Origin: Nannocystis radixulma
Lineage (GTDB): Bacteria; Myxococcota_A; Polyangia; Nannocystales; Nannocystaceae
Direction of reading: 5' to 3'
DNA: 64,000 nucleotides
NCBI RefSeq assembly: GCF_028369095.1
Contig: NZ_JAQNDN010000024.1
Coordinates: 629,253 to 693,252 of the forward strand
Under the pieces are notes generated by a model that worked only from the letters and a program-made list of their open reading frames with translations, searched no databases and was not told the origin of the DNA. The position numbers and the translations under genes were made by a program. Of the stretch, positions 46,047 to 64,000 are shown piece by piece. How positions within the stretch are numbered: the first letter of the stretch is position 1; every line of letters starts with the position of its first letter.

Positions 46047-46730
<684 letters not shown>

Positions 46731-46827
46731 TCGCGGCGCTCTCCGTCGCGTTCACGGCGGCCGCCCGGGCCGCCTGGATTTCCATTGGCCACACGACGAC
46801 AAACGACAATAAGGAAGGAGTGCGAAC

Positions 46828-47514
46828 ATGGCTGAACCACAACTCGTATCCATGGCAGAGCAGTTCACGGGGTTGCCGATGAGCGATCTCATCGGCGCCC
46901 CACTGCTGGCGGCGGCCGAGGCCAACAACATGATGGCCGTCACGCAGACGCGGTTTTTGCTCGACACGGCGTTCTCCATCAAAGCGGATGAGACGACGAA
47001 GGCCGAGACCTACTCGCCGATCATCATCGACATGAAGCTGACGCGGGGCGTGCTGATCCCGGCCGACCCGACCAAGCCGGACAGCAAGGCCACCATCGAC
47101 CAGGTGACGACGATCTTCTCGCTGCCGCTGCTGACGATCCTCCCGCTCAACTCGCTGGCGGTCGACAACGTCGACATCACCTTCGACATGGAGGTGAAGT
47201 CGAGCTACAGCGAGAGCACCAGCGAGGCGACCGAGGAGAAGATGGCGGCGGCCTCGACCTTCTCGGCCAAGGTCGGCTTCGGCATCTTCTCGGCCTCGGT
47301 CACCGGCAGCGTGTCGTACGACAGCGCGCATTCGACCAACCACGACACCCACTACGAGAAGAGCAACTCGGCGAAGTACGGCGTGCGGGTCCACGCCGGG
47401 CAGCTGCCGCTGCCGCAGGGCGTGACGACGATCATCCAGGCGTTCACGAACTCGATCACGCCGATCACCATGCCGACCGAACCGCCGGCGAAAACGACGA
47501 ATTCCGGCGGGTGA
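46828..47514 (+). CDS. uncharacterised protein, paralogue B of tandem pair, with Ser/Thr-rich amphipathic beta-hairpin-like segment
   Basis: AAGGAAGGAG Shine-Dalgarno 8 nt before the ATG; segment KVGFGIFSASVTGSVSYDSAHST has alternating polarity; lower GC than surroundings. Confidence 0.7.
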   Translation: MAEPQLVSMAEQFTGLPMSDLIGAPLLAAAEANNMMAVTQTRFLLDTAFSIKADETTKAETYSPIIIDMKLTRGVLIPADPTKPDSKATIDQVTTIFSLPLLTILPLNSLAVDNVDITFDMEVKSSYSESTSEATEEKMAAASTFSAKVGFGIFSASVTGSVSYDSAHSTNHDTHYEKSNSAKYGVRVHAGQLPLPQGVTTIIQAFTNSITPITMPTEPPAKTTNSGG

Positions 47515-50815: not shown

Positions 50816-50909
50816 CGGGGCGGTCGGAGTGAGCCGGGATTTCGCCGCAGCGAGCAGAGACAGGAATGACAGGACAGGGCCCGCGCCGGGGTCCCACGAT
50901 TCGGAGACG

Positions 50910-52052
50910 ATGGTGATGCGATTGTACAGGAGCCTGATCGGTTGGCTGACGATATCCACTCTCTACGCTTTCGGTTGCGCGCCGGTCGCGGCCGCCCGGC
51001 CGGCCGCAGCGGCGCCCGCCGAGGCCAGCGAACCGAAGCGAGCCGTGCCGCCGCCGCGGCCGCCGAAGGGGCCGGACGGGCCGATCACGGCGGCCGAGCG
51101 CGAGCAGGCGATCGAGGCGCTGGCCCGCGAGTTGACGGACAAGTACGTGTTCCCGAAGAAGGCGACCGAAGTGGCGCGCGCGCTCCGGGCCCGCAAGAAG
51201 CGCGGCGAATACAATGGCATCACCACGGGCCATGCGCTGGCGACGGCGCTGACCGCTCATATCAACGAGGTGCTGTTCGACGCCCACTTCCACGTGCGGT
51301 TCAGCAAGGAGACGCTGCCGCCGCAGCGGCAGCCCGGGCCGCCGTCGGCCGAGGATCTGGCGCGCTACGAGGAGTTCGCCAACCAGGTGAACGGCGGGTT
51401 CGAGCGGGTCGAGCGGCTGGCGGGCAACCTCGGCTACGTCGAGGTGCGGTCGTTCGAGTTCCCGGGGCGCGGCTTCACGGCGGCGAGCGCTGCGATGGAC
51501 TTCCTGGCGGAGACCGACGGGCTCATCATCGACCTGCGCCGCAACGGCGGCGGAGCGCCCGAGGTGGTGGCGTACCTCTGCAGCTACTTCTTCGACGAGC
51601 CGGTGCACCTCAACGACCTGTACTTCCGGCCAGATGACGCGACGCGCCAGTTCTGGACGGCGCCGGTGCCGGGCAAGGCGTACGTCGGCCGCGAGATCTA
51701 CGTGCTCACCAGCAAGAACACCGGGTCGGCGGCGGAGGAGTTCGCCTACAACCTGCAGAACCTCAAGCGCGCGACCATCGTCGGCGAGGTGACGTGGGGC
51801 GGGGCCAACCCCGGCGACATGGTCCGCCTCGGCGACCACTTCGCGGCGTTCGTGCCGACGGGACGCGCGATCAACCCGATCTCGAAGACGAACTGGGAGG
51901 GCGTCGGCGTGAAGCCCGACGTCGCGGTGCCGGCCGACGACGCGCTGCGCGTGGCGCAGGTCAAGCTGCTCGAGAAGCAGGTGGCGAAGGCGACGGACCC
52001 GCAGGCGAAGGAGATGCTCGAGGCGCGGCTGCGCGAGCTGCAGGCGAAGTGA
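50910..52052 (+). CDS. S41-family peptidase (tail-specific protease-like), secreted
   Basis: Signal MVMRLYRSLIGWLTISTLYAFGCAP; motifs LIIDLRRNGGG and TSKNTGSAAEEFA of the S41/IRBP-like fold. Confidence 0.75.
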   Translation: MVMRLYRSLIGWLTISTLYAFGCAPVAAARPAAAAPAEASEPKRAVPPPRPPKGPDGPITAAEREQAIEALARELTDKYVFPKKATEVARALRARKKRGEYNGITTGHALATALTAHINEVLFDAHFHVRFSKETLPPQRQPGPPSAEDLARYEEFANQVNGGFERVERLAGNLGYVEVRSFEFPGRGFTAASAAMDFLAETDGLIIDLRRNGGGAPEVVAYLCSYFFDEPVHLNDLYFRPDDATRQFWTAPVPGKAYVGREIYVLTSKNTGSAAEEFAYNLQNLKRATIVGEVTWGGANPGDMVRLGDHFAAFVPTGRAINPISKTNWEGVGVKPDVAVPADDALRVAQVKLLEKQVAKATDPQAKEMLEARLRELQAK

Positions 52053-52214
52053 GGGCGCATGTTCGGCATGCCGCGTGCCGCCCCGTCAGGAGCGACACGC
52101 CGTGAATGACGCGTCCCACCAACCGGCAGCGAAACGCGGCTCCGGCAGGTCTTCCCCGACGACCATGAAGTCGGCGCGGTCTACCCGCACGAGGACGAGG
52201 CGGTCGGTGATGCT

Positions 52215-52931
52215 TCAGAAGGTGCAGATGCCGACCACGACGCCGACCTGCGGCACCGGGGCGCCCTCGCGGTGGGCGAAGTCGTAGCCGAGGCGGACCA
52301 TTCCGGCGACGATGCCGCGGCGGCGCGAGCCGAAGCGGAGGCCGACCCGGCCCTCGGCCTCGATCATGGGCGAGAAGAAGCGGACCGCGAAGCCGCCGCC
52401 GACGCTGGCGAAGCCGCGGCCGCGCGCGCCGAAGCTCGTGAGGCCGGTGACGTGATAGCGGTGGGTGAGGAGGCCGGAGAGGTAGCGCTCGGCGAGCCCG
52501 GTCGACACGGTGAACTGGAAGCCCAGCGCCCACGGGCTGCGCTTCAGCCGGGCGCCGAAGAAGAACGGCAGGTTCGCGGAGGGGAAGTAGTGGAGCCCGA
52601 GCGTCGGTCCCGGCAGGAACGCGAACACGAACCGCGACTTGTTCGCCGGGGCCGGCGCAGGAGGGTAGGCTGGCGGAGCAGACATGTCCTGATGGACATA
52701 CGCGGGCCCAGGCGCGGGCTGCGGGGCTGCCGAGGGGTCGGCGGTCCCGTCGATCGGGGCCGTCGCGGGGGCCGCGGGCGCGGCCGTCGCTGCAGGCGCA
52801 GGGGCGGGCGCGTCGGGAGCGGCTGCCGGAGCGGGCGCGGCGGGCGGCGGGACGGCGACGCCGGCCGGGGTCGGAGCCTGACCGAAAAGACTTGTCGCAA
52901 GAGACATGTGTAAAAGAACATGGGAAATCAT
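52215..52931 (-). CDS. putative outer-membrane beta-barrel protein with Pro/Ala-rich N-terminal region
   Basis: Internal ATG at 52931; signal-like MISHVLLHMSLATSLFGQA; C-terminal beta-strand pattern ending in Phe. The upstream part of the track ORF is junk. Confidence 0.5.
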   Translation of the reverse strand: MISHVLLHMSLATSLFGQAPTPAGVAVPPPAAPAPAAAPDAPAPAPAATAAPAAPATAPIDGTADPSAAPQPAPGPAYVHQDMSAPPAYPPAPAPANKSRFVFAFLPGPTLGLHYFPSANLPFFFGARLKRSPWALGFQFTVSTGLAERYLSGLLTHRYHVTGLTSFGARGRGFASVGGGFAVRFFSPMIEAEGRVGLRFGSRRRGIVAGMVRLGYDFAHREGAPVPQVGVVVGICTF

Positions 52932-53845
52932 GACGCACCTCCGGCGGCGCGACGGCGGCGGCGGCCGAGCGTGCCGATCCACAGCAGCGGGGCGAACAGC
53001 CACAGCGCCAGCGGCGACGCGTGGCCGGTCACGGCGCAGGGCGTGTAGATGAGCTCGCGGTCGTAGTCGCCGCGGTCGAAGCGGCGCGTCTCGCCGCGGG
53101 TGCCGTCGGCGGCGACAGGCGTGAGCTCGAGGCCTCCCTTGGTCGGCGGCATCTCGATCGCGCTCGACCAATTGCTGTCGGGCTCGCGGACGGCGAACAC
53201 CTGGCCGTCGTCGTAGAGCACCTCGACGTAGCCGCCCTCGAGCAGCCACGGCTGCTCGAGGTCGAGCCGCAGGTCGAGGTAGCTGCCGCTCTCGCAGCAG
53301 CCCTCGTCGCCGCGCTTGAACTCGAGCCCGATGTCGTCCAGCGAGCCCGGCGCCGCGGCCGGCGCGGGGTCGAGGCGCGAGCGCACGAACGTGTACTGGC
53401 CCTGCTCGTCGTTGGGCGCGGGGCCGTTGGCGTCGCACACGAGCACGTAGGAGCGCTCGGGGAGGAGCGGGCGCTCGGGCACGTAGCGGACGAGCGCGTC
53501 AGGGAAATTGTCGCCGCCGACGTACGAGGGCTCGACGTTGCAGTGCTCCGCGCCGTCGACCTCGACCGCGACCGGGATGACGTCGTCGCCGCGCTCCAGC
53601 CGGCACTCCGAGGGGGGGGCAAAGTCGTACGCGCAGCCGCGCAGCTCCCAGAACTGGGCGTCGAGCGGGAACTCGGCGGTCGAGTCGTGCAGCGAGCCGG
53701 GCATCGACCACTCGTCCTCCCACGGCGGACCGTCGCACGAGAGCGCCGCCGCGGGCCGCTCCGGCAGGACGAACAGCGCCGCGCAGGCCAGCCCGGCCAG
53801 GACTCGCGCGCGCGTCGTCGAAGAGATGTTTGTTGTGCTGTACAT
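52928..53845 (-). CDS. secreted protein with MYXO-CTERM sorting tail
   Basis: Signal MYSTTNISSTTRARVLAGLACAALFV; C-terminus CAVTGHASPLALWLFAPLLWIGTLGRRRRR fits the MYXO-CTERM pattern (Cys, hydrophobic span, Arg cluster). 4-nt overlap with the next gene. Confidence 0.6.
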   Translation of the reverse strand: MYSTTNISSTTRARVLAGLACAALFVLPERPAAALSCDGPPWEDEWSMPGSLHDSTAEFPLDAQFWELRGCAYDFAPPSECRLERGDDVIPVAVEVDGAEHCNVEPSYVGGDNFPDALVRYVPERPLLPERSYVLVCDANGPAPNDEQGQYTFVRSRLDPAPAAAPGSLDDIGLEFKRGDEGCCESGSYLDLRLDLEQPWLLEGGYVEVLYDDGQVFAVREPDSNWSSAIEMPPTKGGLELTPVAADGTRGETRRFDRGDYDRELIYTPCAVTGHASPLALWLFAPLLWIGTLGRRRRRAAGGAS

Positions 53846-54134
53846 GATGGGCGTCACCGTGCGGACCTGGAGTCGCCGCAGGCGACCGAAAAATTGCGGG
53901 AGCCGAAAATTGCCGCTCGCGCGGGCCTGGACGAGGTTTGGCGGGTCGGGCTGGTTGAAATCGCGCGCGGGCGTCGCGACCTGGGCGGGTCGGGCGGAGT
54001 CGTGCCCCGCGCCCCTCTGAACATGGCTATTCAGACATGTTCATGAGAACATGGCGAAATAGACATCCAAGGTGCCGACGGTGCCGCGGACGATCGTCAG
54101 CTCGACCGGCGTGGCCGCGCGGCGAGGGGTTCGC

Positions 54135-54731
54135 TCATGCGAAGAGCAGGGCCATCATGTGGTCGTCGACGAGCGCGCCGTCGTCGCGGAGGACGAACGC
54201 GCGGCGGGTGCCCTCGAGTCGGAAGCCGAGCGCGTGGTACAGGGCGAGGGCGCGGTGGTTGTCGGCGCGGGTGTAGAGCTCGACGCGGAGGACGCGGCCG
54301 CCGTCGCGGTCGCGGTGGTCGCGGGCCCAGGCGAGGAGATGGGTGAGCAGCGCGCGCCCGAGGCCGCGGCTCTGAGCGCTCGGATGGACGCCCATGCCGA
54401 GGACGGCGACGTGGTGGAGCATGCGGAACGGCAGGCGCACCAGCGACGCTTCGCCCAGCAATTCGCCGTCGTCCTGTTCGGCGACGAGGGCGAAGGCGGC
54501 CCCGGAACTGGCGCGCTTCTCGGCGTACGCGGCGAGGTCGGGCGGGAGCTCGTCGGGGTACTTCACGACGCCGTCGCGGGCGCGCACGATGGCCTGCTCG
54601 AGCGCGTACAGGCCGGCGTCGTCGCCCTCCGCGGCGGCCCGGAGGGTGCAGCGACGACCGTCGGAGAGATGCACGGTGACGGGCGCGAAGGACATGGAGG
54701 ACATGGAGGCGTGGTCGAGCGAGGCTGTCAA
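54135..54731 (-). CDS. GNAT-family N-acetyltransferase (last gene of the putative RiPP-like operon)
   Basis: Motifs HHVAVLGMGVHPSAQSRGLGRALL and YHALGF. A TTG start overlaps the upstream stop; alternative ATGs lie 9 and 11 codons downstream. Confidence 0.7.
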   Translation of the reverse strand: MTASLDHASMSSMSFAPVTVHLSDGRRCTLRAAAEGDDAGLYALEQAIVRARDGVVKYPDELPPDLAAYAEKRASSGAAFALVAEQDDGELLGEASLVRLPFRMLHHVAVLGMGVHPSAQSRGLGRALLTHLLAWARDHRDRDGGRVLRVELYTRADNHRALALYHALGFRLEGTRRAFVLRDDGALVDDHMMALLFA

Positions 54732-55852
54732 GGGCGGGCGATCGGGCGCAGCGAGGCGGCGCTCAGGGCGAGGTGCGGAGCGCCCTGGCTGACGGGCAGG
54801 TTGTTCTGACCGTCCTTGTTGCAGCCGAGCGCGGAGTCGAAGAAGGTGAGGTCGTCGGCGATGCCGGCGAGCCGGGCGAGCGTGGCGAGCTTGTCACCCA
54901 CGAGGTCGAAGCGGCGCAGCACCTCGCCGGTCGGTCGGCCGTCGCGGATCCGCACGCCGTACGCGGGGCGGAGGACGAACTCGCGGCCGACCGAGCCGCC
55001 GCCGATCACGCCGCGGCAATAGATGGCGTCGGCCTGGTCCGCGAGCAGAGCCGCCGGCGACTGCCCGCCGGGCTCGACGTAGGTCACGGCCATGCGCGGG
55101 ATGGCGGGCGCGTCGTCGACCCGCCGACCGTGACCCGAGCTGTCGACGCCGAGCTGCCGGGCGCTGGCGCGGCTGTGCAGCAGGCCGCACCAGACGCCGT
55201 CCCGCACGAGCGGGATGGCGTGCGCCGGGACGCCCTCGTCGTCGACGTCATAGCCGCCGACGCGACCCGGGAGGCGCGGATCGTCGACCACGTGGAGCGG
55301 CAGCTCGGTCCAGCGATGCCCGAGCTGGATCCCCGCCGGGGCCATGTACGCGGCGTAGTTGTCGGCCTCGGAGCTGTGGCCGATGCACTCGTGCACCAGC
55401 GTGGACGCGAGCCATGGATCGAGGACCACGGGGCAGCGCGTGACCTCGGCGAGCGGGACGCCGTCGACGGCGGCGCGCACCTCGCCAGCGATCACGTCGC
55501 CCGCGAGCGTGGCGTGGAGCTGGCGAGCCAGCGCGTCGGTGCCGGCCTCGGGGACGCAGGTGTGCCAGACGACGGGGATCCGCGAGCGCGGCCCGGCGAC
55601 GACGAGCCGGATCACGAGAGCGGTGTGCGCGACGCATGCGTCGCCGCGGAGCCGTGCGCGCGACTCGAGCGAGAGCTCGTGGGCGACGACCTCCGGGCCG
55701 AGCGTGGCGGCGAGCGCGACCTGCAGCGCCTCGGCAGCAGCGGCGAGCTCGGACCAGGCGAGCAGCCCGGGGTGCTCGCACGTCGCTCCGAACCACCGCG
55801 GCGCGGCGCCGGCGGTCAGCAGGACGCTGCGGTGGAGACGGACGTCGCTCAT
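54728..55852 (-). CDS. TldD/PmbA-family metallopeptidase
   Basis: Start at MSDVRLHRSVLL (ATGA overlap with the upstream gene). Motif VLDPWLASTLVHECIGHSSEADNY typical of the TldD/PmbA C-terminal domain. Confidence 0.7.
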   Translation of the reverse strand: MSDVRLHRSVLLTAGAAPRWFGATCEHPGLLAWSELAAAAEALQVALAATLGPEVVAHELSLESRARLRGDACVAHTALVIRLVVAGPRSRIPVVWHTCVPEAGTDALARQLHATLAGDVIAGEVRAAVDGVPLAEVTRCPVVLDPWLASTLVHECIGHSSEADNYAAYMAPAGIQLGHRWTELPLHVVDDPRLPGRVGGYDVDDEGVPAHAIPLVRDGVWCGLLHSRASARQLGVDSSGHGRRVDDAPAIPRMAVTYVEPGGQSPAALLADQADAIYCRGVIGGGSVGREFVLRPAYGVRIRDGRPTGEVLRRFDLVGDKLATLARLAGIADDLTFFDSALGCNKDGQNNLPVSQGAPHLALSAASLRPIARP

Positions 55853-57978
55853 GTCGCGAGGGCCCGTTCGACGCCGGCGAGCAGGGCCTCTCCGGCGGGC
55901 GTGAGGCGGGCGTGCTGCCGCAGGGTGGACATCGCGGCGGCGACCCGGTCCTCGATCTTTCGCAGATAGCGGTCCATCGGCGCCTCGGCGAGCGCGGGGA
56001 CGCCGGCCGCGAGCATGCGGCGGGTGATCTGAATGTCGTGGAGGAACGAGTACACGCCGTGGACGAGCGCCGTCAGCGGCCGCGGGATGGCGACGAAGGG
56101 CGAGGGGTGGAGCTCGTCGTCGGGGTTGGTGACGACCGGGTAGACGTCGAGCAGCGTGCTGAGCTTGTTGTGCGCGGCCTCGTGGACGAGCGTCTGCGCG
56201 GTCATGTAGTCCGGACGAGCGCTGGCGGTGACGAGGCCGCGAAAGCCGGCGACGCTGGCGTTGTGCGGGCGCAGGCCGTGCGAGCGTACGGGCAGCAGGA
56301 GAGCGACGCTGTCCTCGAGCTCGGCGCGAGCGGCGGGCCAGTGGTGCGCGACGTGCTGCAGGCCCTGGGTCATCGCTACTCGCCACGCCGCCAGCGCGGC
56401 GTCGTCGATGTCGAGGAACAGCGGGCTGACGCGGCCCTCGACGTCCTCGCGCGCCGGGAAGAACTCGGTGTACCAGCGGCTGGTCCGCAGCAGGAGCACG
56501 CGGGAGCCGGGCGCCGTCGCCAGCGGTACGACCTCCCAGCCGTCGCCCCTGGCCGGTTCACGCAGCGCTGCGCGAGGGATCGCCAGCGCCTCGCCAAGGC
56601 GGAGCTCGTCGCCCGCGGCCACGGCGGTGACGACTTCGGGCAGCGGCTCGCGGGTCCGCAGCGCGCATGCCAGCGACAGCAGGTGCAGCTCGGTCGCATC
56701 CGTGGGGGCGAGCAAGACGGGCTCGCCCGCGGGGAGCGCGTCGTGGACGAACAACGCCGGCAGCAGCGCGACGCCGAGGTGACGCACGAGCAGCTCGAGC
56801 TGCGGCGGGAAGGCGAACTCGAGCGCCTCGGCCATGCGCCAGATCCAGGAGGTGAGCTCGGGCCGGAGCAGGAGGTCGCGCAGGACGTCGGGGGCGAGCC
56901 GCTGCACGCCGGCGACCAAGGTGGCCAGCGAACGCCGGTGGGCCTCGTCGTGCAGCTTCGCGTGGGCGCGGCCGCAGAGGACGAGCAGGCGCTTGAGGTA
57001 CGGGCGCCAGGTGTAGTCGCGTAGCAACCGGTGGGCCGCGCCGTCGGGCTCGGGGAGCGCGAGCCGGCTCGGGTCGAGCGGCGGCAGCGGGGCCTGCAGC
57101 AGCGTCCGCACGCGGGCCATGTCGATCGGCAGCGCGTCCGCGGACGAGGCATCGCGCGGCGGAGTGATGCCGGCGGCCTGCCGCAAGCGGGCGACCCGCG
57201 CCTGCCACCACCGCCGCGCCAGCGTGCGCGCGACCTCGGGGTCGCGCAGGGCCTCGCCGAGGTCGGACAGGACCTGGGCGAGCACGTCCGGCAGCGCCGC
57301 CTCGGCGGCCGCGAGATCGACGGGGACCGCGGGCAGCGGCGACCAGAACCGCTCGTCCTCCGAGAGCAGGGCCGCGAGCGTCGGCACGATCTCGCCGTGC
57401 GCCGACTCGGCGTCGACGAGCAGCGAGACGCTCGTCGACGGGCCGCGCGACAGCCCCCAGTGCGGCCAGAAGATCGGGATGTACAGCAGATCGCCCGGCT
57501 CGAGCGTGTACTCGATCGCGCCCGCAGGCATGGGCACCGGGCCGAGCTCCGGGTGCTTCAACATGCGCAGGCGCTGCTGATCGCGCGGGATGATGTCGGG
57601 CGGGTGAAGTCGCCACAGCTTGGCGCCGGACTGCTGGAGGATGAAGTTGTCGCTGTAATCGTAGTGGCTGCCGATGCTGTGCCCGTCCCGCATCGTCGAG
57701 CCGTCGAAGCCGACGCTTGCGCTGCCGAACAGGGACACGAGCCGCTGGGCGAGCGCCCGCAGCCGCGGCACCACGGCGTCGATGCGCTGGGCGAACACGA
57801 CGTCGTCGCCCGAGCGCTTGACGCGGTCGGGGTCGAGCCGGGACAGCCGCGCGATGGCGTCGTCGAGCTCGTCCTCCGTGACGCCGGGCGTGAGCAGGCG
57901 CGAGGCGCCGCCGCGGATGAACAGCGGGCGGCGGCGCCAGTGCGTGGCGAAGAATTCGTCGGGCAGCCAGGTGCTCAC
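55849..57978 (-). CDS. fusion protein: JmjC/cupin-4 oxygenase domain + C-terminal HExxH-motif domain
   Basis: GTG start overlapping the upstream stop (GTGA). N-terminus GHSIGSHYDYSDNFILQQSGAKLWRL ... LEPGDLLYIPIFWPHWG (HxD...H 2-oxoglutarate/Fe cupin). C-terminus LVHEAAHNKLSTLLD (HExxH). Confidence 0.7.
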   Translation of the reverse strand: MSTWLPDEFFATHWRRRPLFIRGGASRLLTPGVTEDELDDAIARLSRLDPDRVKRSGDDVVFAQRIDAVVPRLRALAQRLVSLFGSASVGFDGSTMRDGHSIGSHYDYSDNFILQQSGAKLWRLHPPDIIPRDQQRLRMLKHPELGPVPMPAGAIEYTLEPGDLLYIPIFWPHWGLSRGPSTSVSLLVDAESAHGEIVPTLAALLSEDERFWSPLPAVPVDLAAAEAALPDVLAQVLSDLGEALRDPEVARTLARRWWQARVARLRQAAGITPPRDASSADALPIDMARVRTLLQAPLPPLDPSRLALPEPDGAAHRLLRDYTWRPYLKRLLVLCGRAHAKLHDEAHRRSLATLVAGVQRLAPDVLRDLLLRPELTSWIWRMAEALEFAFPPQLELLVRHLGVALLPALFVHDALPAGEPVLLAPTDATELHLLSLACALRTREPLPEVVTAVAAGDELRLGEALAIPRAALREPARGDGWEVVPLATAPGSRVLLLRTSRWYTEFFPAREDVEGRVSPLFLDIDDAALAAWRVAMTQGLQHVAHHWPAARAELEDSVALLLPVRSHGLRPHNASVAGFRGLVTASARPDYMTAQTLVHEAAHNKLSTLLDVYPVVTNPDDELHPSPFVAIPRPLTALVHGVYSFLHDIQITRRMLAAGVPALAEAPMDRYLRKIEDRVAAAMSTLRQHARLTPAGEALLAGVERALAT

Positions 57979-59213
57979 AGTCCTGCGTCCTTTCGTGTCG
58001 CCTGCAATCGCTCGAGCCGCGCGCGGACCTCGTCGAGCTCGCGGGCGCGGCCGAGGCGGGCCGCGGCGATGCTGGCGAGCTGGTACGGCTCGGCCCGCAG
58101 CGGGATCCGCTCGAGGCAGCGCAGCGCGGCGGCCAGGCCGGCCGCGAAGTCGCCGCGCCGGCACTCGGCGAGGGCGCGCAGGGAGAGGCTGTGGGCCTGC
58201 ATGGTGTCGATGAGGTCGCCCTCGGCGCGAGCGAACCACTCGGCCGCCGCGCCCGGCTCGCGCCGCGCGAGGTGGCGAAGGCCGAGCTCGTAGGCCGGCC
58301 AGGTTGCGCGGTCGCCGAGCCTGCGCGCCTCGGCGTGGGCCTCCGCGGCCTCGCCCAGCCGATCGGCGCGGGCGCACAACACGGCGCACAGGGCCATCCC
58401 GGGCCCGCCCAGGGGGTCCAGCTCGCTGGCGGTGAGCTCGGCGAGCTCGGCGTGCGACGCCGGCGCTGCGCGAGCGACGACGGCGAGGCTGCGCGCGGCC
58501 TGCTGCGGCCGCGGGGTCGAGGGGGCGAACGCGAAGCCCATCGCCGCGGCCAGCCGGGCGCCGAGCGGCCGCAGGTGCTCGGGCATGAAGCCGCTGGCGA
58601 TCGAATGGGTCATCGCCGGCGGGTCGTCGAGCAGGCCGGCGGCGGCCAGCTCGGCGGCGACGTCGGCTGGCTCATGGGTCAGGTCGGGACTGCCGTCGTA
58701 AAAGAAGTCGAGGTCGACGTCGAGCCGGGCGCCGCGCAACCCGAGCCGCGACAACCTGCGCAGCGTGGTCGCCTCGACCCGCAACCCGCCGACGCGCGCG
58801 CGGGCGGCGACGTCGTCGGCGACGAAGCTGCCGAGCACCTCGTGCCCGTGGCCGGGCAGCAGCGACAGGGCCGACCACAGCACCTCCGCGAGCTGGGCCG
58901 CGCTCCGCGGCCGCGGCTCCGGCAGGACCCACACCACGCGCTCGATCAGCCCGAGGTCGGCGGCGGCGTAGAGGAAGCTGTCGAGGCCGTAGGCGAACCG
59001 GTCGTCGTCGCGGAACGGGAGATCGCGGTGGAGCCGGTCGAGACCGCCGCCGTGGGCGCCGTCGCGGACGCGCGCGAGCTGGTCGGCGGCGATCCGCTTG
59101 AGGTCGAGGTGATGATCGAGGACGACCACGCACTCGCGCGACCAGCCCTGGCGATGCCAGTGCGCGAGCACCTCGCCGTGCTCCTCGAAGGCGCGGACCA
59201 GTCCCCGCGTCAC
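57975..59213 (-). CDS. hypothetical protein with helical C-terminal half (operon member)
   Basis: 412 aa; N-terminus AHWHRQGWSRECVVVLDHHLD; 4-nt overlaps at both ends indicate coupling. Confidence 0.55.
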   Translation of the reverse strand: MTRGLVRAFEEHGEVLAHWHRQGWSRECVVVLDHHLDLKRIAADQLARVRDGAHGGGLDRLHRDLPFRDDDRFAYGLDSFLYAAADLGLIERVVWVLPEPRPRSAAQLAEVLWSALSLLPGHGHEVLGSFVADDVAARARVGGLRVEATTLRRLSRLGLRGARLDVDLDFFYDGSPDLTHEPADVAAELAAAGLLDDPPAMTHSIASGFMPEHLRPLGARLAAAMGFAFAPSTPRPQQAARSLAVVARAAPASHAELAELTASELDPLGGPGMALCAVLCARADRLGEAAEAHAEARRLGDRATWPAYELGLRHLARREPGAAAEWFARAEGDLIDTMQAHSLSLRALAECRRGDFAAGLAAALRCLERIPLRAEPYQLASIAAARLGRARELDEVRARLERLQATRKDAGL

Positions 59214-60010
59214 GCGATCACCCCCAGACGCGCGAGGCCCTCGCCGAGCGCCGCGAGGCTTTCGACAGTGACCATCATGCCCTGTCCCGCGAGCGCGGCG
59301 ACCAGGACGTCGGGCCGCATCCGCCCGTGTTCCAGCAGCGCCGCGCTGACCGGCGTGGCGGGGCCGCGGACGAAGCGCGCGGGCGTGGCGGCGTAGAGGA
59401 ACAGCGCCGCGCCGGACGGATCCGGAGCGACCGGGCCCTTCGTCAAGGTGCGGACGAACTCGAGCGGATAGCGCTGCACCGCGTAGTGGGCGACGCCGTT
59501 GTCGCGGATCAGCGCGGTGCGCACGGCGAAGCTCGGGTCCCGGTTGAGCACGAGGATCGAGAGGAGCCCGGTGAGGAACTCGTGGGTCAGCAGATCGACG
59601 GCGTGCGGTCCGGCGGCCCGCAGCGCGTCGTCACCGCGCAGGAACTCGAAGAACGCCTCCTCGACCGAGATCCCGCGCGGGCCGTACGGCACCTGCCGGC
59701 TGTCGGCGTACTGCGGCGAGGCGACGAAGCGCTCGACCAGCGCGGCCGCGCCGTGACCGGCGCGCTCCAGCTGCGCGAACAGATCGGGGAAGGTGCTGCG
59801 CAGGCCGCCGTCGTACTCGACGTTGCCGCGCAACAGGTCGCGCCCGATCGCACCGCTGATGGCGACCAGCTCGTCCGGATCGATGGTGCGCAGGTGGGCC
59901 TGCGCCTCGGGCTCGAGCCCGAGGGATTCGAGGCGGCCGGCGAGGAACTGGTCGCGCGCGCGGCGATCGTGGAGCAGCCGGTAGAGCGCGGTCTGTAACG
60001 TCTCAGGCAT
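59210..60010 (-). CDS. DUF2063-like partner protein of the MNIO (MbnC/TglI-type)
   Basis: 266 aa directly downstream of, and overlapping by 8 nt, the DUF692 gene, the canonical position of MNIO partner subunits. Assigned mainly from synteny and size. Confidence 0.5.
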   Translation of the reverse strand: MPETLQTALYRLLHDRRARDQFLAGRLESLGLEPEAQAHLRTIDPDELVAISGAIGRDLLRGNVEYDGGLRSTFPDLFAQLERAGHGAAALVERFVASPQYADSRQVPYGPRGISVEEAFFEFLRGDDALRAAGPHAVDLLTHEFLTGLLSILVLNRDPSFAVRTALIRDNGVAHYAVQRYPLEFVRTLTKGPVAPDPSGAALFLYAATPARFVRGPATPVSAALLEHGRMRPDVLVAALAGQGMMVTVESLAALGEGLARLGVIA

Positions 60011-60962
60011 GCGCCTCCTCGCCGAGCCAGGCGGCGGCCATGGCCGCGAGCCGCTCGAAGTTGGCGACCGACTTGGGCACCAGCTCGCCGTCCTCGAAGT
60101 AGCGCGGATCTTCGTAGGTGATCGCGCGGAGGTGAGGGCAGCGGGGCAGCAGCCAGGCGAGCAGCTCGAGCTGCTCGTCGAGCAGGACGCCGTGGTGAAG
60201 GTCGCGGAACTTGCCGCCGGAGATCTGGCAGCCGGACAGGTGAATCTCGTGACAGGCGAGCAGCGGCAGGCGCTCGAGCGCCTCGAAGCGGCGCGGGCCC
60301 ACGCGGCCCTGCGACCACTGGTAGCTGAGGAGGTGGCCGACGTCGAGCGTGACCGGTGAGCCCGTCTCGTCGGCGACGACGCGGAAGAACTCGAAGGCGT
60401 CCATCGCCCCGATGGTGATCGTCGCGCCCTCGGTGAAGCCGGGGAACTCGACGCACACCGGCGCGGCCAGGCGCGACTGCCAGCCGCGGACGTTGCGGAT
60501 GCACGCGGCCAGCCCCTCGTCGGTCAAGAACGGCGGCAACGGGTACGGCAGCGATTTGCCGGCGATCGACCACAGCCCGAGGTCCTCGACGATCCACGCG
60601 AAGCCGTAGCGCTCGACGAGCGCGTTGGTGAACGCGGCCACCGCGTCGAACTCGATCGGATCGAGGGTCGCCATGTTGAGCAGGGTGTGGTGCAGCGCGC
60701 GGTGACCGATCCGCGGCGCCGCGGCGAACAGGGCGTCGTAGGCGGCGAAGTAGTCGCCGGCGCGCAGGCGGTTGCGATTGCCCGGCTGGAACGCGAACAC
60801 GAGGTAATTGAAGCGCTCCTGGTAGCGCGCCAGGAAGTTGGCGACCCGTGGGGTGACGGTGTCGCCGCGCTCGGGATCACGGGTGAAGCCGATCCGCTCG
60901 CCCCACGGCAGATCCATCCCGACCCCGAGGCCGAGCCGCGGCGTCGTCGGTCGTCGCGTCAT
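60003..60962 (-). CDS. DUF692-family multinuclear non-heme iron oxidative enzyme (MNIO, MbnB/TglH-like)
   Basis: Start at MTRRPTTPRLGLGVGMDLPWG (ATGA overlap with the rSAM stop). Motifs LGLGVG, LDVGHLLSY, LLACHEIHLSGCQ resemble the DUF692 TIM-barrel family. Confidence 0.65.
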   Translation of the reverse strand: MTRRPTTPRLGLGVGMDLPWGERIGFTRDPERGDTVTPRVANFLARYQERFNYLVFAFQPGNRNRLRAGDYFAAYDALFAAAPRIGHRALHHTLLNMATLDPIEFDAVAAFTNALVERYGFAWIVEDLGLWSIAGKSLPYPLPPFLTDEGLAACIRNVRGWQSRLAAPVCVEFPGFTEGATITIGAMDAFEFFRVVADETGSPVTLDVGHLLSYQWSQGRVGPRRFEALERLPLLACHEIHLSGCQISGGKFRDLHHGVLLDEQLELLAWLLPRCPHLRAITYEDPRYFEDGELVPKSVANFERLAAMAAAWLGEEAHA

Positions 60963-62914
60963 GCGGACCTCCGGGCCCGCACCGGCGTGCCCGCGCCGGT
61001 CGCGAGCAGTCGCGTGAGCACGTGGGCGGCCTCGTCGCCGTCGGCCCGCAGCAGCTCGCCGTCGTGCTGGATGGCGGGCGGCAAGCGATAGATCGTCTGC
61101 CACAGCAAGTTGGCGAGGAACGACGCGGCCGCGCCGTCACGCCAGGTGGCGCGCACGACCCGGACCCACGGGTGCAACTGGAGCGCGTACACGGGCTCCG
61201 CGGGCGCCGGCGGCCCGCGACGCTCGGGCGGGACGTCGTCGTTCTTGTGGGGGTGGACGTTGTGATGGATGGCGAGGAAGCGCCGCTGCATCGCCTCGAA
61301 GGGCGGGGCGCCGCGCGCCTCGAAGCGGAGGCCGACGCGACCGAGGCCGTAGCTGAGCAATTCGTTGCCCTGCCAGCGCTCGCGGTCGGGGATGACGACG
61401 CCGAATTCCTCGGGGCGCTGGGCGAGCGGGGTGCCGGGCTCGCAGGTGAGCATCTGCATGACGTCGATGGCGATCTTGCCGGCGTTGGCGGCGAGGAACG
61501 CCTCGGAGGCGGCGACCTCCTCGGCGGTCTCGTCGAGGATCCCGCCCATCACCGACAGCCGCAGCTCGATGCCGACGGCGTGCAGGTTGTCGACGATCGG
61601 CTGGTAGTCGGCGGCGTCGACGCCCTTGTCCAGCCGATCGAGGAGGCGCTGCGAATTGGTTTCGTAGCCGACCGCCATCTGGACGCAGCCGAGGGCGCGC
61701 AGCTCACGGCAGACCTCGAGGTCGCGGAGCAGGCGCTCGAAGCGGCAGCGGACGCTGAACTCGATGGCGACGCCGCGGCGACGGAGCAGGCGCATGGCCC
61801 GACGCACGACTGGCAAGTTTGTCATCTCGTCGACGAAGTTGATGCGGCGGACGCCGTACGTGCGGACCAGGTGCTCGCATTCGTCGGCGATCTGGCGCGG
61901 CGACTTCTGCTGATAGCCGACGCGGCGCGAGCGGGCGCCGTACGAACAAAAGGCGCAGCGGCCCCAGAAGCAGCCGATGCCGGTGACGAGCGGGAGCTGG
62001 ACCGCGTCCATGACGTAGCGCTGCCACGGCAGATCGGAGAAGTCGGGCGGGGGCAACGCGGCGATCGGCGGCGGCGGATCGTCCCGCGACGGCGCGCGGC
62101 GGTCGAGCCACACCACGGAGGGCACGTCGCTCCACGCGGCGGCGCCCGCGGCTGCGCGCGCGAGCGCGGCGAGGGTCGCCTCGCCGGCGCCGGTCGCCAG
62201 CGCGTCGACGACCCCGGCGATCGCCGGGACGCGGGAGAGTGCGTCGTGACGCAGCATGATCTGCGGGCCCCCGAGCACGATGACGGCGTCGGGGCAGCGC
62301 GCGCGGATCCGCCGCGCCAACCACAGCGCCGGCCCGATCTGGCTGTAGAACGCGACCGAGATGCCGACGATCGCCGGGGTCGACGGCGCGAGCGCGTCGT
62401 CCAGCAGCGCCGCGAGGGCGCGCGCGGCGAGGTCGTCCGCGTCCGGCTCGTCGCCGGCGGTGAACCGGGCGGCGAGCTGGGACAACGAGGTCGACGAGAA
62501 CTTCAGCGCCGATCGCTCGAGCAGCAGATCGATCGCCTGGCCGGCGAGTCGCAGCGCCGACCGACTGTCGATCGCCGCCGCGGCCTTGTCGAACACGCGG
62601 GCGCGCAGCGAGTCGCAGATCGACAGCAGGTAGCGCGCCATCGCCGAGCGATACGCCCGCGCGAGCGGCTGCGGGTCCGCCTCGGCGGCGAGCTCCGGCC
62701 CGAGGTAGGCGCGCAGCGCCGCAGGCGCGAGCAGGGCGTGGCACAGCTCGATGTTGAGGTCGCGCGGTCGCACCGCGACGCCCTCGCGCCGCAGGTACGC
62801 GGTCAGGGCCGGCAGGCTGAGGTACGGGAACAGCCGCGCCTCGGTGGCCGGGGGGAACAGCAAGAGCACGTCGGGCGGGCTGACACTCGCGCGCATGTCG
62901 ATGGTGGGTGGCAT
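60959..62914 (-). CDS. B12-binding-domain radical SAM enzyme
   Basis: Start at MPPTIDMRASV. Rossmann-like B12 region IVGISVAFYSQIGPALWLARRIRARCPDAVIVLGGPQI. Radical SAM cluster motif CFWGRCAFCSY. Confidence 0.85.
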   Translation of the reverse strand: MPPTIDMRASVSPPDVLLLFPPATEARLFPYLSLPALTAYLRREGVAVRPRDLNIELCHALLAPAALRAYLGPELAAEADPQPLARAYRSAMARYLLSICDSLRARVFDKAAAAIDSRSALRLAGQAIDLLLERSALKFSSTSLSQLAARFTAGDEPDADDLAARALAALLDDALAPSTPAIVGISVAFYSQIGPALWLARRIRARCPDAVIVLGGPQIMLRHDALSRVPAIAGVVDALATGAGEATLAALARAAAGAAAWSDVPSVVWLDRRAPSRDDPPPPIAALPPPDFSDLPWQRYVMDAVQLPLVTGIGCFWGRCAFCSYGARSRRVGYQQKSPRQIADECEHLVRTYGVRRINFVDEMTNLPVVRRAMRLLRRRGVAIEFSVRCRFERLLRDLEVCRELRALGCVQMAVGYETNSQRLLDRLDKGVDAADYQPIVDNLHAVGIELRLSVMGGILDETAEEVAASEAFLAANAGKIAIDVMQMLTCEPGTPLAQRPEEFGVVIPDRERWQGNELLSYGLGRVGLRFEARGAPPFEAMQRRFLAIHHNVHPHKNDDVPPERRGPPAPAEPVYALQLHPWVRVVRATWRDGAAASFLANLLWQTIYRLPPAIQHDGELLRADGDEAAHVLTRLLATGAGTPVRARRSA

Positions 62915-62982
62915 GTCGGGTGGGGGCGACCGGCGGGCCCGACGCCGTGCAATGCACAGCGCGCGCCCGCCGGTCCGGCCGC

Positions 62983-63294
62983 TCACTTGGTGAACAGCTT
63001 CGAGTGGGCGATGACGTGACGGGAGACCTGCTCGATCGGGTTGCTCTCCCCCGCCTCGTCGAGGATCCGCTGCTGCGCGGTCTTCTCGTCGATGCCTTGC
63101 TGCTTGGCCAGGAGCACCGAGGCCTCCTTGAGGACGGCGAAGGTCCGCTCGTCGAGCTCGTTCAGCGGCTGCACGACGGCGAAGCGGAACGCGTGGAAGG
63201 CGTTGCCGACCTTCAGCTCGTTCGATTCGATCACGTCGAGCTGCTCGAGCTCCGCCAGCTGATTTCCATCCTGCATGCTTGATTCGTATGCCAT
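62983..63294 (-). CDS. small acidic protein (103 aa), first gene of operon; candidate precursor or recognition partner
   Basis: AGGAGGA 5 nt upstream of the ATG; GC3-rich codons; no Cys; 68 nt upstream of the rSAM gene. Confidence 0.6.
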   Translation of the reverse strand: MAYESSMQDGNQLAELEQLDVIESNELKVGNAFHAFRFAVVQPLNELDERTFAVLKEASVLLAKQQGIDEKTAQQRILDEAGESNPIEQVSRHVIAHSKLFTK

Positions 63295-63540
63295 AGATCC
63301 TCCAATTCGCCTGCGACGCGCGGGCGTTCACCTGTCGCACCTATTCACGACAGCGCGGGGAAGCTAGCACGGCATATGGGCCCCCTCAAGACCCACGACC
63401 GCGCGCACGGGCGGGAGACGGCGATGATTCGCTGGTGCCTGTCGACCACGCATTGCGCTGCGCAGTGTATGGTTTCCGAGCGATGCTCGCCGTGGCGATT
63501 GCGAGCATTCGTCGACGGCCGGCGATTCGAGCGAGATGCA

Positions 63541-64000
63541 TCATTGCGCGGTGAGGGCGCGAAGCCGGCGCGGCCTCTGGCGCGGCCGCGCGAGCGTGGC
63601 GTGCAGGCCGGAGCCTTCGCCCCCAATCGGGGTCGACTGCACCGAGGCGCCGGCGCGCCTCGGTGCTCCCGCGGCAGCGAACGGCCCGCGCCCCGTTCTC
63701 TCACCGACCGGGAGCGAGGTCCGGGGTGCGAACTCCTCGATGCGAATGTTTCCGTCGAGCTTTTCCCATGGGTCGACCCGCACGGTCGGGATGAACCACC
63801 CGTTGCAGAACTCGAAGTCGAGGTCCTGGCAGAGCTCGCCTTCGAGCGTGAATCGCATGAGGAGCGACGTGCAGTATTCGGACAGGCAATCGTGTACGTC
63901 GTGTCGCCGCTCGGAGCGGCCCTCGAACAGGAGATCGGGGCGCCCGTCGAGGTCGAGATCGGGGTCAGCACATCGGCGATGTCGACGAAGCGCGGCGTGT
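63541..64000 (-). CDS. 3' end of a gene continuing beyond the window (function unknown)
   Basis: Frame is open to nt 64000; protein-like segment ...DLLFEGRSERRHDVHDCLSEYCTSLLMRFTLEGELCQDLDFEFCNGWFIPTVRVDPWEKLDG...; the last 60 codons are low-complexity. Confidence 0.3.
   Translation of the reverse strand, partial: HAALRRHRRCADPDLDLDGRPDLLFEGRSERRHDVHDCLSEYCTSLLMRFTLEGELCQDLDFEFCNGWFIPTVRVDPWEKLDGNIRIEEFAPRTSLPVGERTGRGPFAAAGAPRRAGASVQSTPIGGEGSGLHATLARPRQRPRRLRALTAQ

What the first reader, a model, noticed from the sequence alone, without database searches (positions are those of the whole stretch)
54135..63294. Previously undescribed RiPP-like operon: B12-radical SAM + DUF692 MNIO + partner + JmjC/HExxH fusion + TldD/PmbA + GNAT
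Nine ORFs on the minus strand are chained by 4-8-nt start/stop overlaps (ATGA, GTGA), i.e. obligatorily co-translated. The gene set is (i) a 103-aa acidic ORF with a perfect Shine-Dalgarno, (ii) a B12-binding radical SAM enzyme (CxxxCxxC), (iii) a DUF692-type multinuclear non-heme iron oxidase, (iv) a DUF2063-like partner in the canonical position, (v) a 412-aa unknown, (vi) a 709-aa fusion of a JmjC-type 2-oxoglutarate/Fe cupin with a C-terminal HExxH domain, (vii) a TldD/PmbA peptidase, (viii) a GNAT. Each enzyme class is individually known from peptide natural-product maturation: MNIOs in methanobactin and TglHI-type pathways, B12-rSAMs as C-methyltransferases, HExxH/cupin enzymes as peptide hydroxylases, TldD/PmbA as leader peptidase. 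I know of no characterised cluster that combines an MNIO pair, a B12-rSAM and a cupin-HExxH fusion.
Basis: partly seen in the sequence, partly recalled or inferred. Interest (0 to 1): 0.88.

Follow-up and report, generated by a model that had tools for sequence, protein, structure and literature searches.

The report
Biphenomycin-type antibiotic gene cluster in Nannocystis
This operon is a myxobacterial copy of the biphenomycin peptide-antibiotic pathway that was worked out in 2025, so it is not a new class, but it has two unusual features: a long extra tail on the precursor peptide and an acetyltransferase where the export pump normally sits.

Summary
It is not a previously undescribed system. 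The 103-aa ORF carries FHAFRF at residues 33-38, the defining precursor motif of the biphenomycin-type (pbs/bpm/bip) RiPP pathway characterised in 2025 (PMC12257519, PMC12707348). Every gene has a counterpart there:
- MNIO plus partner: Phe ortho-hydroxylation.
- The "412-aa unknown": the TPR peptide arginase (Arg to Orn).
- B12-radical SAM: biaryl C-C cross-linker, not a methyltransferase.
- The 709-aa protein: a fusion of the JmjC Orn hydroxylase (BipG) and the aKG-HExxH beta-hydroxylase (BipH).
- TldD-type protease (BipI).

Orthologous clusters occur in Bacillus clarus, Streptomyces, Thermoactinomycetaceae and Sorangium. The window is from a Nannocystis strain.

What remains unusual:
- A 65-aa helical follower after the FRF core. 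It has no homologue outside its own cluster among 1.84 billion representative proteins.
- A GNAT where related clusters carry an MFS exporter.
- A distant metagenomic contig (55% GC) again pairs a long-follower precursor with a homologous GNAT.
- I did not find the G-H fusion mentioned in the papers I read.

Verdict: a new variant of a known kind, of modest interest as a genome-mining lead.

The parts
62983..63294 (-). Precursor gene (BipA/PbsA-type), 103 aa. Leader is about residues 1-35, FHAFRF is residues 33-38 with the FRF core at 36-38, and the follower is residues 39-103.
   Evidence: This is the only FHAFRF in the 64-kb window. The leader and core align with precursors from B. clarus, Streptomyces and Sorangium. 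GGAGG lies 4 nt before the ATG. The sequence is 100% identical to a Nannocystis hypothetical protein, P0121.
63181..63198 (-). Codons for FHAFRF, the defining motif. FRF is the predicted core that becomes oTyr-(OH)Orn-(OH)oTyr.
   Evidence: The role of the motif is taken from PMC12257519.
62986..63180 (-). 65-aa C-terminal follower domain. It is predicted to be helical and is unusual for this family.
   Evidence: Its only hit among 1.84e9 representative proteins is its own cluster. It is 51% identical to the follower of P0123 from a 55%-GC metagenomic contig. AF2 predicts helices at 49-66, 70-83 and 86-101, with pLDDT about 80 for residues 50-80. The fold search found no significant match.
62920..62986 (-). 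RNA hairpin between the precursor stop and the rSAM start. I infer that it acts as a transcript stabiliser or partial attenuator.
   Evidence: The fold energy is -53.6 kcal/mol with z = -3.79, and 0 of 200 shuffles fold as well. On my reading of the sequence, not folded, an inverted repeat also follows the Sorangium precursor stop. There is no T-run, so its function is an inference.
60959..62914 (-). B12-dependent radical SAM enzyme (BipD/PbsB orthologue), predicted to form the biaryl C-C cross-link.
   Evidence: PF04055 2e-12, with PF02310 at 6e-4, below its cutoff. It is 43-48% identical over its full length to the rSAMs of the Bacillota clusters and 63% to the Sorangium one. The CFWGRCAFC triad is conserved.
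60003..60962 (-). MNIO (BipE/PbsC orthologue), predicted Phe ortho-hydroxylase.
   Evidence: PF05114 3e-13. It is 56-60% identical to the MNIOs of the B. clarus, Streptomyces and Thermoactinomycetaceae clusters and 76-77% to Sorangium and L013.
59210..60010 (-). MNIO partner protein (BipF/PbsD type, non-DUF2063).
   Evidence: It has no Pfam or NCBIfam hit. It is 33-45% identical to the gene in the same position in the orthologous clusters. PbsC-type clusters are reported to use PME-type 2 partners (PMC12452194).
57975..59213 (-). TPR-containing peptide arginase (BipC/PbsE orthologue), predicted to convert Arg to Orn.
   Evidence: It is 33% identical (E 8e-73) to the B. clarus 414-aa TPR protein, 44-45% to the Thermoactinomycetaceae proteins and 64% to the Sorangium one. 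D[RH]HLDLK and DxDLD[FYW] motifs are conserved. There is no PDB sequence hit.
55849..57978 (-). Fusion of a JmjC hydroxylase (BipG-like, about residues 1-290) with an aKG-HExxH beta-hydroxylase (BipH-like, about residues 320-709).
   Evidence: JmjC_2 at residues 95-192. TIGR04267 at residues 538-702, 83.6 bits against a cutoff of 40. The N-terminus is 34% identical to the stand-alone Streptomyces JmjC, and stand-alone HExxH proteins align to residues 276/321-708. HxD...H and HEAAH motifs are present. Full-length fused homologues occur in Sorangium, Thermoactinomyces and Salinithrix.
54728..55852 (-). Single-subunit TldD-type metalloprotease (BipI/PbsP orthologue).
   Evidence: PF19289 3e-37. 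The HECIGHSSEADNY motif is conserved. It is 36-45% identical to the orthologues.
54135..54704 (-). GNAT N-acetyltransferase, in the position that an MFS exporter holds in related clusters. The start could instead be the TTG at 54731.
   Evidence: PF00583 6e-17. It lies inside the 9.5-kb block shared by three Nannocystis genomes whose flanks differ. A 52%-identical GNAT sits next to the other long-follower precursor in L017. Sorangium, L013 and L015 have an MFS there instead.

Best explanation
This is a biphenomycin-type RiPP biosynthetic operon in a Nannocystis genome.

Predicted pathway, by homology to the characterised pbs/bip enzymes:
1. The 103-aa precursor is bound through its acidic leader (ELEQLDVIESNELKVGNAFHA).
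2. The MNIO and its partner ortho-hydroxylate both Phe residues of the FRF core.
3. The TPR arginase converts the central Arg to Orn.
4. The B12-radical SAM enzyme joins the two ortho-tyrosines by a biaryl C-C bond.
5. The JmjC half of the 709-aa fusion gamma-hydroxylates Orn, and its HExxH half beta-hydroxylates the C-terminal ortho-Tyr.
6. The TldD-type protease removes the leader and possibly the follower.

The expected product has a biphenomycin-A-type macrocycle.

What is shown here: gene content, motifs, orthology and synteny.

What is inferred: the chemistry, which is taken from the published orthologues, and three further points.
- The GNAT acetylates a free amine of the product, either as tailoring or as self-protection that replaces the missing MFS pump.
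- The hairpin after the precursor gene tunes precursor-to-enzyme transcript levels.
- The 65-aa follower is cleaved off or serves an accessory role.
For: - FHAFRF occurs once in the window, at residues 33-38 of the first ORF of the operon. It is the motif by which the family was defined (PMC12257519).
- All seven enzyme types of the bip/bpm clusters (Table S8) are present and confirmed by profile or homology.
- The same genes sit together in B. clarus, which the JACS paper names as having an orthologous BGC. They also sit together in Streptomyces, Thermoactinomyces daqus, Salinithrix, a Thermoactinomycetaceae MAG and Sorangium So ce693. The order rSAM-MNIO-partner-arginase is shared with the Bacillota and Sorangium clusters; Streptomyces places the arginase first.
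- The 9.5-kb block at window 54126-63680 is shared at 95.5-97.4% nucleotide identity by two other Nannocystis genomes whose flanks differ.
- The enzyme genes show a dN/dS-like ratio of 0.15-0.46 against N. pusilla.
- BpmG (288 aa) plus BpmH (351 aa) roughly add up to the fusion length.
Against: - I did not align against the experimentally characterised protein sequences themselves (PbsB-E, Sg/Ps Bip). I aligned only against their orthologues in clusters of the same architecture.
- No MFS or other exporter was found in the operon or in the ORFs I scanned on its downstream side.
- A 65-aa follower is unprecedented in the family descriptions I read. PbsP showed no C-terminal proteolysis, so the mature product is uncertain.
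- Expression and product are untested.
- The GNAT role is pure inference, because its closest profile and PDB matches are generic.
Confidence: 0.9

Rival explanations
1. Same enzymology, but a different kind of end product. The follower is a functional domain rather than disposable sequence. The mature molecule would then be a roughly 68-residue polypeptide (or a large fragment) with an N-terminal biaryl macrocycle, or the follower would serve as a docking or immunity module. The co-inherited GNAT would act on this follower-bearing species.
For: - The follower is conserved between Nannocystis and a 55%-GC metagenomic organism: 25 of the 65 follower positions are invariant across the three aligned sequences, and 51% of the whole precursor is identical.
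- It is predicted to be helical with moderate confidence.
- Both long-follower lineages carry homologous GNATs (52% identical) despite different gene order. Eight short-follower loci lack such a GNAT.
- PbsP removed only the leader in vitro.
Against: - Only two independent lineages show the pairing, so the association could be shared ancestry.
- BipI enzymes cut both N- and C-terminally and tolerate unrelated followers (PMC12707348).
- Within Nannocystis the follower evolves faster than the enzymes: dN/dS about 0.7 from 13 changes, against 0.15-0.46.
- The follower has no recognisable fold or family.
Confidence: 0.17
2. One reading: a new RiPP class whose chemistry cannot be inferred from known pathways, with the MNIO acting as in methanobactin/TglHI and the B12-rSAM as a C-methyltransferase.
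For: The NCBIfam equivalog models for characterised MNIO and rSAM systems (ApyH, BufB, HvfB, ApyD, rSAM_ocin_1) all score far below their cutoffs.
Against: - The precursor has no Cys and carries FHAFRF.
- The full enzyme set, and the rSAM-MNIO-partner-arginase gene order, match the biphenomycin clusters.
- The low NCBIfam scores show only that no listed NCBIfam model reached its cutoff on this subfamily.
Confidence: 0.03
3. The cluster is a decaying or silent remnant that makes no product. The long 'follower' would then be a read-through artefact of a lost stop codon.
For: - The follower is less constrained than the enzymes within Nannocystis.
- No exporter was found.
- No promoter-like site was detected, although the scan is sigma-70-specific.
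Against: - All eight ORFs are intact in three Nannocystis genomes, and the enzyme dN/dS is 0.15-0.46.
- Catalytic motifs are conserved.
- A homologous follower of similar length exists in a distant organism, which a recent read-through would not explain.
Confidence: 0.04

Closest known systems
Biphenomycin clusters bip (Streptomyces griseorubiginosus) and bpm (S. filipinensis NRRL 3217), from Strunk et al. 2025 (PMC12707348) and Padhi et al. 2025 (PMC12257519)
   Same: The precursor has an acidic leader and FHAFRF. The clusters share the MNIO plus non-DUF2063 partner, TPR arginase, B12-rSAM, JmjC hydroxylase, aKG-HExxH beta-hydroxylase and single TldD-type protease. The presence of the HExxH enzyme predicts the biphenomycin-A-type (beta-hydroxylated) macrocycle.
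   Different: - Here the JmjC and HExxH enzymes are one 709-aa polypeptide.
- The gene order is A-D-E-F-C-GH-I rather than A-B-C-D-E-F-G-H-I.
- There is no MFS gene (bipB); a GNAT is present instead.
- The precursor is 103 aa with a 65-aa follower, not 41 aa with a 2-residue follower.
- The host is a myxobacterium.
pbs cluster of the Bacillota strain BE23 and the orthologous Bacillus clarus cluster (PMC12257519)
   Same: The gene order rSAM-MNIO-partner-arginase is the same, and the leader is very similar (ELxVGNAFHAFRF). MNIO identity to the B. clarus orthologue is 56%, and rSAM identity is 43%.
   Different: The pbs and B. clarus clusters have no HExxH enzyme, and their small cupin is a separate gene. 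They have several short precursors or a single 42-aa precursor, and they carry an MFS.
Aminopyruvatide (apy) cluster of Burkholderia thailandensis (PMC10635010; gene names partly from my own knowledge)
   Same: It also combines an MNIO, its partner and a B12-rSAM on a ribosomal peptide, and it gives the best NCBIfam hit for the MNIO (ApyH) and one of the top three for the rSAM (ApyD).
   Different: The scores are far below the equivalog cutoffs (48 against 400, and 76 against 750). The apy cluster uses a P450 for cross-linking and acts on a C-terminal Asp, and it has no FRF motif, arginase, JmjC or HExxH.
PflC/PosC aKG-HExxH enzymes (PMC12636437)
   Same: They belong to the same HExxH enzyme family as the C-terminal half of the 709-aa protein, and they occur in MNIO-containing RiPP clusters.
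   Different: PflC and PosC hydroxylate Gln runs and oxidatively cleave the backbone at a C-terminal ARMD motif. That motif is absent here, and the context matches BipH instead.

Membership tests
Biphenomycin-type (pbs/bip/bpm) RiPP cluster | Precursor peptide with an acidic leader and the conserved FHAFRF motif (FRF core) | tested here: met
   FHAFRF is at residues 33-38 of the first ORF and occurs nowhere else in the window. The leader aligns with the B. clarus, Streptomyces and Sorangium precursors.
Biphenomycin-type (pbs/bip/bpm) RiPP cluster | PF05114 MNIO of the PbsC/BipE group with an adjacent non-DUF2063 partner | tested here: met
   PF05114 3e-13. The MNIO is 56-60% identical to those in clusters with FHAFRF precursors. 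The partner is 33-45% identical to its positional equivalents and has no PF09836 hit. No direct alignment to PbsC or BipE themselves was made.
Biphenomycin-type (pbs/bip/bpm) RiPP cluster | B12-binding radical SAM enzyme (PbsB/BipD) next to the MNIO | tested here: met
   PF04055 and a sub-threshold PF02310 hit. It is 43-48% identical over about 640 aa to the Bacillota cluster rSAMs. The Cys triad is conserved.
Biphenomycin-type (pbs/bip/bpm) RiPP cluster | TPR-containing peptide arginase (PbsE/BipC), present when the core is FRF | tested here: met
   The 412-aa protein is 33-45% identical to the B. clarus and Thermoactinomycetaceae equivalents, with E down to 3e-109. In L019, where the core is FKF, no arginase homologue was found.
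Biphenomycin-type (pbs/bip/bpm) RiPP cluster | JmjC/cupin Orn hydroxylase (PbsQ/BipG) | tested here: met
   PF08007 1e-15 at residues 95-192. It is 34% identical to the Streptomyces stand-alone JmjC in the same cluster type.
Biphenomycin-type (pbs/bip/bpm) RiPP cluster | aKG-HExxH beta-hydroxylase (BipH/BpmH; biphenomycin-A branch only) | tested here: met
   TIGR04267 scores 83.6 bits against a cutoff of 40 at residues 538-702. The HEAAH motif is conserved.
Biphenomycin-type (pbs/bip/bpm) RiPP cluster | Single TldD-type HExxxH protease without a TldE partner | tested here: met
   PF19289 3e-37 and an HECIGH motif. There is only one such gene in the block.
Biphenomycin-type (pbs/bip/bpm) RiPP cluster | MFS exporter in the cluster (usual but accessory) | tested here: not met
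   There is no MFS in the operon or among the ORFs I scanned on its downstream side. The window ends 700 bp upstream of the precursor, so the upstream side is unknown for this strain.
Biphenomycin-type (pbs/bip/bpm) RiPP cluster | Product contains a biaryl-linked oTyr-Orn-oTyr macrocycle | not testable with these tools
   This needs expression and MS/NMR.
DUF2063-partnered, Cys-modifying MNIO systems (bufferin BufBC, HvfBC) | Cys-containing precursor and a DUF2063 (PF09836) partner | tested here: not met
   The precursor has no Cys. The partner has no PF09836 hit at E up to 0.1. BufB and HvfB models score 39 and 15 bits against cutoffs of 310 and 360.
Aminopyruvatide (apy) cluster | ApyH and ApyD equivalogs | tested here: not met
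   NF050151 scores 48 bits against 400, and NF050148 scores 76 bits against 750. The gene calls found no P450 in the 8-gene block.

The most novel reading that the evidence does not exclude
Long-follower precursors together with a dedicated GNAT define a distinct branch of the biphenomycin family. In this branch the conserved helical follower of about 65 aa is functional. It could be retained, giving a protein-sized product with an N-terminal biaryl macrocycle, or it could act as a docking or immunity module. N-acetylation would replace export by an MFS pump as the way the producer handles the compound.
Probability: 0.17. Interest if true: 0.55.

Novelty: new variant of a known kind. Interest (0 to 1): 0.3.

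Why it matters
Biphenomycins are potent antibiotics against Gram-positive bacteria, and their pathway was solved only in 2025. The published surveys stress Actinomycetota and Bacillota.

A myxobacterial version would extend the known architectural range of the family and offers concrete engineering handles. It has fused hydroxylases, an acetyltransferase in place of the exporter, and a long conserved follower. The fusion could be used as a single-gene route to the doubly hydroxylated biphenomycin-A core.

It could also yield an N-acetylated or C-terminally extended congener.

It does not open a new enzyme class or answer a long-standing question.

Tried and rejected
- **Exact-sequence look-ups.** Look-ups of the window's MNIO and partner found nothing. 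The strain itself is not in the collection. The source genus was identified through the precursor.
- **Follower as a degenerate second cassette.** I tested whether the follower derives from a second leader-core cassette, like the two-cassette precursors of Thermoactinomycetaceae. Smith-Waterman scores against shuffles were not significant (p = 0.22-0.93, with one comparison at 0.037). Rejected.
- **Follower homologues and fold.** A phmmer search over 1.84e9 representatives returned only its own cluster. Pfam gave only a sub-threshold ANTAR hit at E = 0.079. Foldseek against the PDB on a mean-pLDDT-61 model gave nothing better than E = 0.29 and TM 0.35, which is uninformative.
- **Riboswitch or known RNA.** A search of 53800-64000 found only two sub-threshold chance hits.
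- **Promoter and terminator scan.** The scan of 62800-64000 found nothing. It covers only sigma-70-type promoters.
- **GNAT specificity.** Only generic RimI-, PA1377- and YncA-like matches appeared.
- **PDB sequence search with the arginase.** No hits.
- **Homologue search with the 709-aa fusion.** The search was limited by the candidate cap and returned only 5 proteins, so I cannot say how common the fusion is.
- **Mentions in the literature.** The main texts and supplements of the two biphenomycin papers contain no hit for Nannocystis, Sorangium, Thermoactinomyces or acetyltransferase, and no mention of a G-H fusion.
Full report
**Observation.** The window has about 72% GC, so mechanical ORF lists are crowded. 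Using the frame, start-codon context and homology, I resolve eight co-directional minus-strand genes between 54135 and 63294:

| Gene | Coordinates | Length |
|---|---|---|
| Precursor ORF | 63294-62983 | 103 aa |
| Radical SAM | 62914-60959 | 651 aa |
| MNIO | 60962-60003 | 319 aa |
| Partner | 60010-59210 | 266 aa |
| 412-aa protein | 59213-57975 | 412 aa |
| 709-aa protein | 57978-55849 | 709 aa |
| TldD-type protease | 55852-54728 | 374 aa |
| GNAT | 54704-54135 | 189 aa |

The precursor/rSAM junction is better read as a 68-nt gap. Orthologue alignments start at residues 8-15 of the ATG-62914 form, and NCBI calls in sister genomes give 645 or 651 aa. The gap holds a strong hairpin of -53.6 kcal/mol with z = -3.8.

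**Profile checks.** Pfam and NCBIfam confirm:
- Radical_SAM, with a sub-threshold B12-binding hit.
- PF05114 (MbnB_TglH_ChrH).
- JmjC_2 at residues 95-192 of the 709-aa protein.
- PmbA_TldD_3rd.
- GNAT.

The partner has no DUF2063 hit. The 412-aa protein and the 103-aa ORF have no significant family.

**What it is.** A homologue search with the MNIO found 576 relatives, many 55-60% identical across Bacillota, Actinomycetota, Cyanobacteria and Myxococcota. Their neighbourhoods in Bacillus clarus and a Streptomyces hold the same gene set: a 41-42-aa ORF, an MFS, a roughly 415-aa protein, the rSAM, the MNIO, the partner, a small JmjC protein and a TldD-type protease.

A literature search led to two 2025 papers that solved this pathway:
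- Padhi et al., JACS (PMC12257519): the pbs cluster and the bpm cluster of S. filipinensis.
- Strunk et al., Angew. Chem. (PMC12707348): the bip clusters.

The family was defined by precursors with a conserved FHAFRF motif. The window's 103-aa ORF reads ...ELKVGNAFHAFRFAVV..., with FHAFRF at residues 33-38. It is the only such motif in the 64 kb, and its leader aligns closely with the B. clarus, Streptomyces and Sorangium precursors.

The published roles are:
- MNIO plus partner ortho-hydroxylate both Phe residues of FRF.
- The TPR arginase converts Arg to Orn.
- The B12-rSAM makes the biaryl C-C bond.
- The JmjC enzyme gamma-hydroxylates Orn.
- The aKG-HExxH enzyme (BipH/BpmH) beta-hydroxylates the C-terminal ortho-Tyr, which gives the biphenomycin A branch.
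- The single TldD-type protease trims the peptide.

tblastn of the window's proteins against the fetched loci shows full-length homology for every enzyme. This includes the '412-aa unknown', which is 33-45% identical to the arginase-position gene. The order rSAM-MNIO-partner-arginase is shared with the Bacillota clusters. Catalytic motifs are conserved. The partner's lack of DUF2063 agrees with the MNIO survey, which assigns PbsC-type clusters a different partner type (PMC12452194).

**Source and unit of inheritance.** The precursor is 100% identical to a Nannocystis hypothetical protein. Two Nannocystis assemblies carry the same eight genes. DNA identity to the window is 97.4% and 95.5% over window 54126-63680 and stops at both ends, and the three genomes have different flanks. 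The eight genes therefore form the conserved unit. The enzyme genes show dN/dS-like ratios of 0.15-0.46 against N. pusilla, so the cluster is maintained.

**What differs from the described clusters.**
1. *Fused hydroxylases.* The JmjC and HExxH hydroxylases are fused. Full-length fused homologues (641-720 aa) also occur in Sorangium So ce693, two metagenomic contigs, Thermoactinomyces, Salinithrix and a Thermoactinomycetaceae MAG. The fusion is therefore recurrent. I found no mention of it in the two papers or their supplements.
2. *GNAT in place of the MFS.* In Sorangium, L013 and L015 the gene after the protease is an MFS. In Nannocystis it is a GNAT, and I found no exporter in the operon or in the ORFs I scanned on its downstream side.
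3. *Long follower.* The precursor has 65 residues after FRF. Other precursors have 2-16, and two Thermoactinomycetaceae precursors instead carry a second leader-core cassette.

**The follower.**
- It has no homologue outside its own cluster in 1.84 billion representative proteins.
- It is predicted to be helical with moderate confidence.
- It has no significant fold match.
- It is not detectably derived from a second cassette.
- Within Nannocystis it changes faster than the enzymes: 9 non-synonymous against 4 synonymous differences, which is a small sample.
- One further long-follower precursor exists (P0123, 107 aa, 51% identical overall). It lies on a 1972-bp contig of 55% GC, between a TldD-type protease (57% identical to the window's) and a GNAT that is 52% identical to the window's.

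Long follower and GNAT therefore travel together in two distant lineages with different gene order. Eight short-follower loci lack such a GNAT. This is suggestive, but it rests on two lineages only.

**Mechanism and uncertainty.**
- *Inferred by orthology:* the core chemistry. I put 0.9 on membership of the biphenomycin family. The presence of the HExxH module predicts a biphenomycin-A-type doubly hydroxylated macrocycle.
- *Unresolved:* the fate of the follower. BipI enzymes cut on both sides of FRF and tolerate unrelated followers, whereas PbsP cut only N-terminally.
- *Inferred from position and co-occurrence only:* the role of the GNAT, whether N-acetylation of the freed N-terminus or the Orn amine as tailoring, or self-protection in place of export. 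Its sequence matches are generic.
- *Inferred:* the role of the hairpin after the precursor gene. An inverted repeat (my reading, not folded) also follows the Sorangium precursor stop. By analogy with other RiPP operons, which is my own knowledge, such hairpins adjust precursor-to-enzyme transcript ratios. There is no T-run.

**Verdict.** The claim of an undescribed combination is not, because this is the biphenomycin pathway. The residual novelty lies in the Nannocystis-type architecture: fused hydroxylases, a long orphan follower and a GNAT instead of an MFS. It is a worthwhile genome-mining lead but not a surprise to specialists. Interest 0.3.

Noticed in passing
L001 9480-11658 (Polyangium sp. 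6x1, GCA_029946515.1): An MNIO 58% identical to the window's Phe-hydroxylating-type MNIO sits with a partner homologue (33% identical). There is no rSAM, arginase, JmjC or TldD, and no FHAFRF peptide. The upstream gene is a 174-aa protein whose N-terminus looks lipoprotein-like to me, with two ...CYxxCK... motifs. This may be a different substrate for a close relative of the biphenomycin MNIO.
   Followed up: no
L006 about 14040-14220 and L008 about 11330-11510: The precursors of Thermoactinomyces daqus and a Thermoactinomycetaceae MAG carry two tandem leader-core cassettes in one ORF (...ELQVGNAFHAFRFSSAIEELDVVEANELKVGNAFHAFRFNA). One peptide could therefore yield two macrocycles.
   Followed up: partly
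L019 10001-16426 (metagenome contig Ga0182745_1001400): This variant precursor has FHAFKF, with Lys in place of Arg, in a cluster with the rSAM, the MNIO and a stand-alone HExxH enzyme. No arginase homologue was detected. That fits the idea that the arginase is needed only for Arg cores and predicts a Lys-containing analogue.
   Followed up: partly
L011 307-8177 (Nannocystis assembly GCA_026626685.1, upstream of the cluster): In this sister strain the upstream flank holds a 413-aa JmjC protein, a second small GNAT, an HlyD-like protein, a C39-peptidase ABC transporter and another ABC protein. The window's sequence diverges from this flank at about 63686, so I cannot tell whether the window's strain has them.
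   Followed up: no
window 52075-54125: This roughly 2-kb segment lies just downstream of the GNAT and holds two ORFs with no Pfam match (52928-53857 and 52215-52931, minus strand). It is present in the window and in L011 but absent in N. pusilla L012, where the S41 peptidase gene (window 50829-52052) directly abuts the cluster. It marks an indel at the cluster boundary.
   Followed up: partly
window 30180-39851 (minus strand): This is a single 3223-aa ORF with very high third-position GC, made largely of TPR repeats (TPR_19, TPR_14 and others).
   Followed up: no
window 46047-47514 (plus strand): Two adjacent DUF2589 proteins, with a SUKH-1 (SMI1/KNR4) domain protein at 43428-44828 and a beta-lactamase-family protein at 40371-41963. 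They appear unrelated to the cluster.
   Followed up: no
window 63560-64000 (minus strand): In my six-frame translation, an ORF runs off the window's end. It reads like the C-terminal end of a gene and contains a DLDLDGRPDLL-type repeat, so the gene upstream of the cluster is cut by the window edge. Between it and the precursor lie about 390 bp that are conserved among the three Nannocystis genomes and have no recognised promoter or RNA family.
   Followed up: partly
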